Part shown: in pieces, positions 60,792-64,000 of the stretch
How the letters are laid out: each line of letters opens with the position of its first letter
Position numbering within the stretch: position 1 is the stretch's first letter
DNA from: Escherichia coli
GTDB lineage: Bacteria; Pseudomonadota; Gammaproteobacteria; Enterobacterales; Enterobacteriaceae
Length of the DNA stretch: 64,000 nt
Assembly (NCBI RefSeq): GCF_030013595.1
Contig: NZ_CP122768.1
Reading direction: 5' to 3' (one strand)
Made by a program: the position numbers and the translations under genes
The notes under the pieces: generated by a model
What the model saw: only the letters and a program-made list of their open reading frames with translations
The model's database searches: none
Told to the model about the DNA's origin: nothing

Positions 60792-61067
60792 CTATCGCAC
60801 AGGATGAATAAGATAATTCGCCTTTGTCGGAAAAGGGGGCGTGATGTCTTCTGTGAGATTTAATGGTGGCGCATCTTCTCTCATCTTAAACAAAATCGCC
60901 TGTGATGGCTGAAGTTTTGTAGAATGAGTTGTCGTCATCACTGACGTTTTTTCTGTCTCTTTATAGCTCGTCTCACTTCCACCACCAGAAATGGAAAATG
61001 CAAAAACATTGCATGCCATAATAGAGACCAATAAAAATAAGCTAAAAAGCATTAAGTTTACTTTCAT
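60792..61067 (-). CDS. ypdI: putative lipoprotein YpdI
   Basis: 91-aa ORF; signal peptide with lipobox-like IMACN. Confidence 0.85.
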   Translation of the reverse strand: MKVNLMLFSLFLLVSIMACNVFAFSISGGGSETSYKETEKTSVMTTTHSTKLQPSQAILFKMREDAPPLNLTEDITPPFPTKANYLIHPVR

Positions 61068-61209
61068 AGAAAGTTATCCTGAGAATGGCTCACTGAGAAC
61101 CTACGATGTTATGGCTGTATTTACATTTAATTAATCAGTATTTACATCGATATAATAAATGACATCTCTTTGTGGTATATAAGAATAGTTCTCTGCGACA
61201 GGAAGCATA

Positions 61210-61227
61210 TTCCTACAATTGTAAGAC
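61210..61227 (+). promoter_or_regulatory. EvgA-box-like inverted repeat upstream of yfdX
   Basis: TTCCTACAATTGTAAGAC fits the remembered EvgA consensus TTCYTACA-NN-TGTARGAA at 16 of 18 positions; a second partial copy CTACAACTGTAAGAT lies about 61253-61267. Confidence 0.5.
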
Positions 61228-61362
61228 TAAAATACTTCTTGCGATAATAACTACAACTGTAAGATAACCCTTTCAAAATGACCGTTGCTCTCTGATTTCT
61301 CATTTCATGCTCACCCAATATGATGGCGGCGTTTTCTAAAACTGTTAAAGAATGAGGTAAGT

Positions 61363-61995
61363 ATGAAACGTTTAATTATGGCTACGATGGTCACAGCAAT
61401 TCTGGCATCTTCAACTGTATGGGCGGCTGATAATGCACCGGTAGCGGCACAACAGCAAACTCAGCAAGTTCAGCAAACCCAGAAAACGGCAGCAGCAGAG
61501 CGTATCTCTGAACAAGGTTTATATGCGATGCGTGACGTGCAGGTAGCGCGCCTGGCTCTGTTTCATGGCGATCCGGAAAAGGCAAAAGAACTGACCAATG
61601 AAGCTTCAGCTTTGTTGTCAGATGACAGTACCGAATGGGCAAAGTTCGCTAAGCCAGGTAAAAAAACCAATGTCAATGATGACCAATATATTGTCATTAA
61701 TGCATCTATCGGAATTTCTGAGAGTTATGTAGCGACACCCGAAAAAGAAGCCGCGATAAAAATTGCCAACGAAAAAATGGCGAAAGGGGATAAAAAGGGC
61801 GCAATGGAAGAGCTTCGCCTGGCCGGTGTTGGCGTAATGGAAAACCAATATCTGATGCCGCTCAAACAGACTCGTAATGCACTTGCTGATGCGCAGAAAC
61901 TGCTTGATAAAAAGCAATACTACGAGGCAAACCTGGCGCTTAAAGGTGCGGAAGATGGAATCATCGTCGATAGCGAAGCACTGTTTGTGAACTAA
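61363..61995 (+). CDS. yfdX: periplasmic protein YfdX
   Basis: 210-aa ORF; signal peptide [21 protein letters not shown]. Confidence 0.9.
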
Positions 61996-62238
61996 TGCTG
62001 ACAGGCAGTATATTGAGGTAAAGGATTTAACTCCCTCCAGCCGACAATTTTTTATGACCACAATACGACAGATTGTGGTCATAAAATTATTTGGCGCTCG
62101 CGGTTCTATAAACTCGCATTTTATCTTCCTCAAAGTAAACCGCAATAATCCCGTGTCATCACAAATCATTTATTATGTTATGTTTTATGGTACGCTTTAA
62201 AAAGCGTAATCATACCCTTACTTGTAAATCACCGGCGC

Positions 62239-62256
62239 TTCTTACAGTTGTAAGAA
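62239..62256 (+). promoter_or_regulatory. EvgA-box-like inverted repeat upstream of frc
   Basis: TTCTTACAGTTGTAAGAA is a perfect 8-NN-8 inverted repeat matching the remembered consensus TTCYTACA-NN-TGTARGAA. Confidence 0.5.
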
Positions 62257-62507
62257 TAACATCACAAATGTCGCGGCTCTCTCTGATTACCGCGAACCAA
62301 TATTTATCATATTCTTCTTTTCGTCCTCACTACTTACCATGCAGAAAGGAATTGGAAGTGGCGATGAAATAATTTTCAGCACTTGATACAGGAATTTAAA
62401 AATATCGAGTGCAGCTACGACGATATTTTGCGGATTATTTATAGAGGGCGTTATGCCTTAAATAAACGCTAAATTAACATATATTTAATTAACTAATAGG
62501 TATTGCT

Positions 62508-63758
62508 ATGTCAACTCCACTTCAAGGAATTAAAGTTCTCGATTTCACCGGTGTGCAATCTGGCCCATCTTGTACTCAAATGCTGGCCTGGTTTGGCGCT
62601 GACGTCATTAAAATTGAACGTCCCGGCGTTGGTGACGTAACGCGTCACCAGCTGCGAGATATTCCTGATATCGATGCGCTTTACTTCACCATGCTTAACA
62701 GTAACAAACGTTCTATTGAATTAAATACCAAAACAGCGGAAGGCAAAGAGGTAATGGAAAAGCTGATCCGCGAAGCTGATATCTTAGTCGAGAACTTTCA
62801 TCCTGGGGCCATTGATCACATGGGCTTCACCTGGGAGCATATTCAAGAAATCAATCCACGTCTGATTTTTGGTTCGATCAAAGGGTTTGATGAGTGTTCG
62901 CCTTATGTGAATGTAAAAGCCTATGAAAACGTTGCTCAGGCAGCGGGTGGCGCGGCATCCACTACGGGTTTTTGGGACGGTCCGCCGCTGGTAAGCGCTG
63001 CAGCGTTGGGTGACAGCAACACCGGAATGCATTTACTGATCGGTTTACTTGCTGCTTTGCTGCATCGCGAAAAAACGGGGCGTGGGCAACGAGTCACCAT
63101 GTCAATGCAGGATGCCGTATTGAACCTTTGCCGCGTGAAATTACGCGACCAGCAGCGTCTCGATAAATTGGGTTATCTGGAAGAATACCCGCAGTATCCG
63201 AATGGCACATTTGGTGATGCAGTTCCCCGCGGAGGTAATGCGGGTGGTGGCGGTCAGCCTGGCTGGATCCTGAAATGTAAAGGCTGGGAAACCGATCCTA
63301 ACGCCTATATTTATTTCACTATTCAGGAGCAAAACTGGGAAAACACCTGTAAAGCCATCGGCAAACCAGATTGGATTACCGATCCGGCATACAGTACAGC
63401 CCATGCCCGACAGCCACATATTTTCGATATTTTTGCTGAAATCGAAAAATACACTGTCACTATTGATAAACATGAAGCGGTGGCCTATTTGACTCAGTTT
63501 GATATTCCTTGTGCACCGGTTTTAAGTATGAAAGAAATTTCACTTGATCCCTCTTTGCGCCAAAGTGGCAGTGTTGTTGAAGTGGAACAACCGTTGCGTG
63601 GAAAATATCTGACAGTTGGTTGTCCAATGAAATTCTCTGCCTTTACGCCGGATATTAAAGCTGCGCCGCTATTAGGTGAACATACCGCTGCTGTATTGCA
63701 GGCGCTGGGTTATAGCGACGATGAAATTGCTGCAATGAAGCAAAACCACGCCATCTGA
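62508..63758 (+). CDS. frc: formyl-CoA:oxalate CoA-transferase
   Basis: 416-aa ORF ([40 protein letters not shown]...), family III CoA-transferase. Confidence 0.92.
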
Positions 63759-63811: not shown

Positions 63812-64000
63812 ATGTCAGATCAACTTCAAATGACAGATGGTATGCATATCATCGTTGAAGCATTAAAACAGAATGATATTGACACTATTTATGGTGTTGT
63901 AGGTATTCCTGTGACGGATATGGCACGCCATGCCCAGGCGGAAGGCATTCGTTATATTGGTTTTCGTCATGAGCAGTCGGCAGGCTATGCCGCTGCGGCA
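63812..64000 (+). CDS. oxc: oxalyl-CoA decarboxylase, 5' end only (continues beyond window end)
   Basis: ATG 63812; [62 protein letters not shown], the N-terminal domain of a ThDP-dependent enzyme; downstream of frc. Confidence 0.85.

What the first reader, a model, noticed from the sequence alone, without database searches (positions are those of the whole stretch)
62239..62256. Perfect EvgA-box-like palindrome upstream of frc
TTCTTACAGTTGTAAGAA is a perfect inverted repeat matching the recalled EvgA consensus at every position. It lies about 250 bp upstream of the frc start in a 512-bp AT-rich intergenic region. This suggests frc-oxc has its own EvgA-dependent promoter separate from yfdX.
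Basis: partly seen in the sequence, partly recalled or inferred. Interest (0 to 1): 0.3.

Follow-up and report, generated by a model that had tools for sequence, protein, structure and literature searches.

The report
Known EvgA binding site before frc

Summary
TTCTTACA-GT-TGTAAGAA lies at 62239-62256, 251 bp before the frc ATG, in the 512-bp, 36% GC yfdX-frc spacer of an E. coli chromosome. The two 8-bp arms are perfectly complementary; the central GT is not. It is the only exact match to TTCYTACA-N2-TGTARGAA in the window, with none in 100 shuffles. The same pattern gives near matches upstream of yfdX, safA, ydeP and yegR and in the shared emrK/evgA spacer in K-12; the frc site is the only perfect one in K-12. 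The box plus 12 bp downstream is identical in 5404 of 5407 E. coli records. The adjacent upstream 30-mer is identical in only 2457 of 5358. The sole variable box position in a 9-strain alignment is a spacer base. A strong hairpin after yfdX fits a separate frc transcription unit. Mullins et al. 2013 (PMC3720670), citing Masuda & Church 2003, mark EvgA-bound inverted repeats for both yfdX and yfdWUVE. A 2021 review lists frc among promoters EvgA binds strongly. frc showed the highest fold increase in a constitutively active evgS mutant. The transcription start could not be retrieved; the -10 at 62305-62310 is my inference. Verdict: already known, low interest.

The parts
62239..62256 (.). EvgA box: TTCTTACA-GT-TGTAAGAA, two 8-bp arms in inverted orientation separated by 2 bp
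   Evidence: exact consensus match, none in 100 shuffles. All 16 arm positions are invariant in 9 strains, and only spacer base 62248 varies. Box plus 12 bp is identical in 5404/5407 E. coli records. Literature.
62257..62269 (+). Invariant extension promoter-proximal to the box (TAACATCACAAAT). It may be part of the EvgA footprint or of the RNA polymerase contact; this is inferred.
   Evidence: The longest invariant run of the spacer is 62249-62269.
62279..62288 (+). CTCTCTGATT motif 22 bp after the box. The same 10-mer lies 22 bp after the proximal yfdX box (61288-61297). It may be the -35-region element of both promoters; this is inferred.
62305..62310 (+). Best -10 candidate, TATCAT (TATTAT in some strains). 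It predicts a start near 62317, the box centre near -70 and a leader of about 190 nt. Inferred, not shown.
   Evidence: 5/6 match, 57.5 bp from the box centre. Comparable candidates exist at safA (61.5, with TG), proximal yfdX (62.5), yegR (59.5-65.5) and emrK (62.5). The block 62297-62366 is only 11% variable. The consensus promoter scan found nothing stronger downstream of the box.
62508..63758 (+). frc (yfdW), formyl-CoA transferase; first gene of the regulated unit
   Evidence: ORF; annotation.
63813..64000 (+). oxc (yfdU), oxalyl-CoA decarboxylase, 5' part (runs off the window)
62050..62086 (+). Hairpin with a T-rich tail (TTATTT) 55 bp after the yfdX stop; probable yfdX terminator separating the two units
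   Evidence: terminator-like, 15 pairs. (dG -26.1 kcal/mol, z -7.28). Compensatory A:U to G:C change in strain 500010 in alignment A2.
61210..61227 (.). Distal yfdX EvgA box, TTCCTACAATTGTAAGAC (1 mismatch)
   Evidence: same in K-12 and L003.
61248..61265 (.). Proximal yfdX EvgA-like box, TAACTACAACTGTAAGAT (3 mismatches)
   Evidence: the CTCTCTGATT spacing is shared with frc.
61363..61995 (+). yfdX, the upstream EvgA-regulated gene

Best explanation
The 18-bp element is the EvgA operator of a dedicated frc-oxc-yfdV-yfdE promoter. Under mild acid, the sensor kinase EvgS phosphorylates EvgA, a NarL/FixJ-family response regulator encoded about 4 kb beyond the window end. An EvgA dimer binds the two inverted TTCTTACA half-sites. 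From a position upstream of a weak sigma-70 promoter it recruits or stabilises RNA polymerase. It probably also relieves H-NS silencing of this AT-rich spacer. Transcription then runs through a leader of about 190 nt into frc and oxc, which consume protons by decarboxylating oxalyl-CoA. Shown here: the site exists, is a perfect consensus match, is far beyond chance, is under strong purifying selection, and sits downstream of a probable yfdX terminator. Taken from the literature: EvgA binding and EvgA-dependent induction of frc. Inferred: the -10 at 62305-62310, the start near 62317, the box centre near -70, and the H-NS contribution.
For: Exact consensus match, unique in the window, 0 in 100 shuffles. 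The same pattern gives near matches upstream of yfdX, safA, ydeP and yegR and in the shared emrK/evgA spacer in K-12. The frc site is the only perfect one in K-12. Footprint in 9 strains: 1 of 18 box columns is variable (a spacer base), against 20 of 40 in the 40 bp upstream. Box plus 12 bp is identical in 5404/5407 records, against 2457/5358 for the neighbouring 30-mer. The divergent locus L003 keeps both arms and changes only the spacer, GT to GC. frc loci of Providencia and Moellerella have no box, not even with 3 mismatches, upstream of frc. There is a hairpin with a T-rich tail after yfdX. evgS and evgA lie next to the operon in the closest genome and in K-12. Literature: PMC3720670 Fig. 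2 legend; PMC8147483; PMC4283999, frc with the highest fold increase in the constitutive evgS mutant; Frc protein rises with other EvgA targets; an RpoD holoenzyme SELEX peak with an H-NS flag in the yfdX-frc spacer.
Against: No transcription start data could be retrieved: the held supplements are truncated or lack the gene. The primary papers are not held, so binding rests on secondary citations. The simple sigma-70 scan finds no consensus promoter between the box and frc, although that is expected for an activator-dependent promoter. The hexamers that Shimada et al. propose for their SELEX peak (TTTATA-18-AATAAT, which corresponds to window 62120-62149) lie upstream of the box, not downstream. 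Many papers still call the cluster one operon, yfdXWUVE.
Confidence: 0.88

Rival explanations
1. frc is driven mainly by the promoter predicted upstream of the box (62120-62149, start near 62156). EvgA bound at about +90 would then act only by displacing H-NS from the transcribed leader (anti-silencing), not as a classical activator.
For:: an RpoD holoenzyme SELEX peak in the yfdX-frc spacer, with proposed hexamers TTTATA-18-AATAAT and an H-NS flag. K-12 carries exactly these hexamers at the position equivalent to 62120-62149. AATAAT is invariant in 9 strains. The spacer is 36% GC.
Against: The hexamer assignment is a computational pick inside a low-resolution SELEX peak. The -35 differs in this window and others (TTTATC). 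The best-conserved block lies downstream of the box (62297-62366). That block contains a 5/6 -10 at a box-to--10 distance shared with other EvgA promoters.
Confidence: 0.07
2. There is no separate frc promoter. frc-oxc is expressed only by read-through from the EvgA-dependent yfdX promoter as one yfdXWUVE operon, and the box is redundant or vestigial.
For: The cluster is widely named the yfdXWUVE operon. yfdX, frc, oxc and yfdV are induced to similar extents at low pH.
Against: A strong hairpin with a T-rich tail and a compensatory substitution lies between yfdX and the box. A vestigial site would not be identical in 99.9% of genomes while its flank is polymorphic. The literature names frc as a separately bound promoter.
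Confidence: 0.03
3. The palindrome is the site of a different or additional NarL/FixJ-family regulator, for example RcsB, whose box as I recall it shares TAAGAAT with the right arm.
For: The right arm plus flank reads TAAGAATA, which matches the first 8 of the 14 positions of the RcsAB box as I recall it (my knowledge, not tested). RcsB regulates yfdX in Klebsiella, according to the title of a paper listed. The invariant run extends 13 bp beyond the EvgA box.
Against: Only one half of that motif matches. The whole 16 specified positions fit the EvgA consensus, and the same consensus marks the other EvgA-associated upstream regions. EvgA binding to frc is reported.
Confidence: 0.02

Closest known systems
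EvgA box of the E. coli EvgS/EvgA regulon (Masuda & Church 2003; Itou, Eguchi & Utsumi 2009), specifically the published site upstream of yfdW/frc
   Same: Identical in every respect tested: the 18-bp 8-N2-8 inverted repeat, the location between yfdX and frc, the K-12 sequence identical in the box, and EvgA-dependent induction of frc.
   Different: Nothing of substance. This strain differs from K-12 at 16 of 512 spacer positions, none within the box.
EvgA boxes of ydeP, safA-ydeO, yegR, emrK/evgA and yfdX
   Same: The same consensus, and a similar distance from the box centre to a -10 candidate of about 57-63 bp. ydeP also has a long box-to-ATG gap: 243 bp, against 251 bp for frc.
   Different: Those sites carry 1-3 mismatches in K-12; frc is the only perfect one. 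yfdX has two boxes 38 bp apart, frc one.
NarL 7-2-7 sites and BvgA inverted heptads (other NarL/FixJ-family operators; my knowledge)
   Same: A dimer of helix-turn-helix domains on two inverted half-sites separated by 2 bp, placed upstream of a weak sigma-70 promoter.
   Different: The half-site sequence and the regulator differ. The comparison is by analogy only and was not tested here.

Membership tests
EvgA box (direct EvgA operator) | 18-bp inverted repeat matching TTCYTACA-N2-TGTARGAA | tested here: met
   0 mismatches; unique in the window; 0 in 100 shuffles. The consensus is recalled from Masuda & Church 2003. I checked it empirically against the K-12 upstream regions of yfdX, safA, ydeP and yegR and the emrK/evgA spacer.
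EvgA box (direct EvgA operator) | Lies upstream of a gene induced when EvgS/EvgA is active | tested here: met
   251 bp upstream of frc. Literature: frc shows the highest fold increase in a constitutive evgS mutant; Frc protein rises with other EvgA targets; frc/oxc are induced at low pH.
EvgA box (direct EvgA operator) | The genome encodes EvgS/EvgA | tested here: met
   evgS/evgA are outside the window but lie directly after yfdE in the 99.9%-identical genome and in K-12. frc loci of Providencia and Moellerella have no box upstream of frc. Their 10-kb flanks were not screened for evgAS; the one large Moellerella ORF checked is not EvgS.
EvgA box (direct EvgA operator) | Sequence constraint on the half-sites (phylogenetic footprint) | tested here: met
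   16/16 arm positions are invariant in 9 strains and only a spacer base varies. 5404/5407 records are identical, against 2457/5358 for the control 30-mer.
EvgA box (direct EvgA operator) | Physical binding of EvgA (EMSA or footprint) | not testable with these tools
   Only secondary statements are available: PMC3720670 Fig. 2 legend and PMC8147483. The primary papers are not held.
EvgA box (direct EvgA operator) | An EvgA-dependent transcription start downstream of the box | not testable with these tools
   The supplements with start-site tables were truncated or lacked the gene. Only a sequence-based -10 candidate at 62305-62310 is available.

The most novel reading that the evidence does not exclude
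The region conserved beyond the box may define an unrecognised second promoter element specific to the two yfd promoters. It consists of 13 invariant bp (TAACATCACAAAT) plus the 10-mer CTCTCTGATT, which lies exactly 22 bp after the box at both frc and yfdX. The element could be a contact for RNA polymerase or for a co-regulator that works with EvgA. This would not change the identity of the box itself.
Probability: 0.12. Interest if true: 0.25.

Novelty: already known. Interest (0 to 1): 0.07.

Why it matters
It matters little as a discovery. The site and its role were published in 2003-2009 and are repeated in later papers. The check adds a population-scale footprint: the box plus 12 bp is fixed in about 5400 E. 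coli genomes while neighbouring bases are polymorphic. It also adds the observation that frc carries the only perfect consensus site among the K-12 loci examined, which fits its being among the most strongly EvgA-induced genes.

Tried and rejected
1. Primary papers could not be read: Masuda & Church 2002 and 2003, Itou et al. 2009 and Fontenot et al. 2013 are not held.
2. Full-text searches for 'EvgA box' and for the consensus string returned nothing relevant.
3. Start-site tables were no help. The Cappable-seq supplement is cut off long before 2.49 Mb. The SMRT-Cappable-seq supplements do not mention frc, yfdX or oxc.
4. The Rfam scan of 60900-62600 gave only a spurious sub-threshold microRNA hit on the terminator hairpin.
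5. The predicted leader 62317-62520 folds only modestly better than shuffles (z -2.1). I rejected it as evidence for a structured RNA element.
It returned only one Escherichia locus, two Morganellaceae (Providencia and Moellerella) and many distant oxalotrophs, so co-occurrence of the box with evgAS across Escherichia species could not be tested.
7. A 1109-aa ORF near Moellerella frc was checked as a possible EvgS homologue and is not one.
8. The yfdX-type layout, with the box overlapping the -35 (TTGTAA-18-GATAAT), was tried on frc. No -10 lies at the corresponding distance, so I rejected it.
9. The second perfect palindrome at 62191-62208 was considered as a further operator. It is broken in several lineages.

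Full report
**Observation**

The window is an E. coli chromosome segment; 5398 of 5426 complete E. coli genomes hold at least 80% of the 2.9-kb query. The gene order here is lpxP, yfdY, ypdI, yfdX (61363-61995, +), frc (62508-63758, +) and the start of oxc (63813 onward). At 62239-62256 the sequence reads TTCTTACAGTTGTAAGAA. The repeat finder reports two 8-nt arms, 100% complementary, with 2 nt between them.

The central GT is not self-complementary: the reverse complement of the 18-mer has AC there. So 'perfect' applies to the arms, which is all the 8-N2-8 consensus requires. The box ends 251 bp before the frc ATG. The spacer is 512 bp at 36.1% GC, against 51.2% for the window.

**Chance**

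The pattern TTCYTACANNTGTARGAA has one exact match in the window and none in 100 dinucleotide-preserving shuffles. The analytic expectation is about 5e-5 per window. With up to three mismatches there are only two further matches. Both lie upstream of yfdX: 61210-61227 (1 mismatch) and 61248-61265 (3 mismatches).

The consensus is recalled from Masuda & Church 2003, and I could not find it quoted in a held paper. I therefore tested it empirically on K-12. It gives near matches in these places:
- the emrK-evgA spacer (2 mismatches)
- upstream of safA (1 mismatch) and ydeP (2 mismatches)
- upstream of yegR (1 mismatch)
- upstream of yfdX (1 and 3 mismatches) and frc (0 mismatches)

Held papers name safA, ydeP, yfdX, yegR and emrKY as EvgA-bound or EvgA-regulated; evgA autoregulation rests on my memory. 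The frc site is the only perfect one in K-12.

**Constraint**

I aligned nine E. coli spacers chosen across the identity range, including the divergent locus L003. Of 514 columns, 133 vary.
- Within the box only one column varies: spacer base 62248 (T or C). All 16 arm positions are invariant.
- The 40 bp immediately upstream are 50% variable.
- The longest invariant run of the spacer (62249-62269) starts in the right arm and continues 13 bp towards frc.

At population scale the contrast is the same. The box plus 12 downstream bases is 100% identical in 5404 of 5407 records that hold it. The adjacent upstream 30-mer is identical in only 2457 of 5358. frc loci of Providencia stuartii and Moellerella wisconsensis (86% Frc identity) show no box upstream of frc, even with three mismatches allowed.

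**Context supporting a separate transcription unit**

A 15-bp-stem hairpin at 62050-62086 with a T-rich tail (TTATTT) lies 55 bp after the yfdX stop. It folds at -26.1 kcal/mol, z = -7.3. One strain carries a compensatory A:U to G:C change in it. yfdX has its own boxes. evgS and evgA lie immediately after yfdE in K-12 and in the genome 99.9% identical to the window.

**Promoter (inferred)**

The consensus scan finds no strong sigma-70 promoter between the box and frc. That is usual for activator-dependent promoters. The best -10 candidate is TATCAT at 62305-62310 (TATTAT in some strains), 57.5 bp from the box centre.

-10 candidates can be found at similar distances in other EvgA-associated upstream regions:
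- safA: 61.5 bp, with an upstream TG
- proximal yfdX box: 62.5 bp
- yegR: 59.5-65.5 bp
- emrK: 62.5 bp

This predicts a start near 62317, the box centre near -70, and a leader of about 190 nt. The block 62297-62366 is only 11% variable. The 10-mer CTCTCTGATT lies exactly 22 bp after the box at frc and after the proximal yfdX box. The predicted leader shows no Rfam family and only a modest folding z-score of -2.1.

**Literature**

- Mullins et al. 2013 (PMC3720670), Fig. [quoted passage not shown] From memory, this is the result of Itou et al. 2009.
- Johnson et al. 2014 (PMC4283999) found frc to show the highest fold increase in a constitutive evgS mutant. They also state that EvgA sites occur in all directly regulated genes.
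- A 2026 preprint lists Frc among proteins regulated by EvgA whose levels rose.
- Shimada et al. 2014 (PMC3946193) report an RpoD holoenzyme SELEX peak in the yfdX-frc spacer, flagged as H-NS bound. Their proposed hexamers TTTATA-18-AATAAT correspond to 62120-62149, upstream of the box. That assignment is computational and underlies the main rival reading.
- The primary papers and start-site tables could not be read.

**Conclusion**

The element is the known EvgA operator of the frc-oxc-yfdVE promoter. Its interpretation is supported, but it rediscovers published knowledge. What remains inferred here is the exact core promoter and the share of H-NS anti-silencing in activation.

Noticed in passing
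window 62191-62208: TACGCTTT-AA-AAAGCGTA is the only other perfect 8-N2-8 inverted repeat in the whole 64-kb window (0.78 expected per window), and it lies 30 bp upstream of the EvgA box. It is broken in ST131/B2 strains and in L003. Strain N96 carries a symmetric double change (C to A and G to T) that keeps it perfect. Function unknown.
   Followed up: partly
window 62279-62288 and 61288-61297: The 10-mer CTCTCTGATT occurs exactly 22 bp downstream of the frc box and of the proximal yfdX box. CCAATAT also follows in both. This may be a shared promoter element.
   Followed up: partly
window 61210-61227 and 61248-61265: yfdX carries two EvgA-like boxes 38 bp apart (1 and 3 mismatches), both kept in K-12 and L003. 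The distal box overlaps a promoter-like TTGTAA-18-GATAAT.
   Followed up: partly
window 62050-62086: Strong hairpin after yfdX (dG -26.1 kcal/mol, z -7.3) with a compensatory A:U to G:C substitution in strain 500010. It gave a spurious sub-threshold Rfam mir-6128 hit.
   Followed up: yes
window 62120-62149: This is the position of the 'constitutive' sigma-70 promoter hexamers proposed by Shimada et al. 2014 for frc (TTTATA-18-AATAAT in K-12). This strain has TTTATC at the -35.
   Followed up: partly
L003 19729-19746 versus L002 2514-2531: A divergent 'E. coli' (SCPM-O-B-8794) has a perfect consensus box, TTCCTACAGGTGTAAGAA, at a position consistent with the evgA-emrK spacer. That position is judged from gene order and the locus was not annotated. 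K-12 has two mismatches at its emrK-evgA site, TTCTTACGCCTGTAGGAT.
   Followed up: no
window 62340-62387: A 15-codon ORF (MQKGIGSGDEIIFST, translated by eye) lies inside the conserved part of the predicted leader. It has no visible Shine-Dalgarno sequence, and its C-terminus changes in L003. Probably not translated.
   Followed up: no
frc upstream region (literature): PMC9600279 lists frc among candidate CpxR-regulated genes found by a binding-site matrix screen. GTAAA pentamers occur at 62135 and 62225 (seen by eye).
   Followed up: no
L091 7523-8731 (closest genome HCP5S3_I2): The genome most similar to the window carries an ISVsa5 (IS4-like) transposase gene next to a 77-codon hypothetical gene where other strains have ypdI. 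The window itself has a 91-codon ORF at the ypdI position.
   Followed up: no
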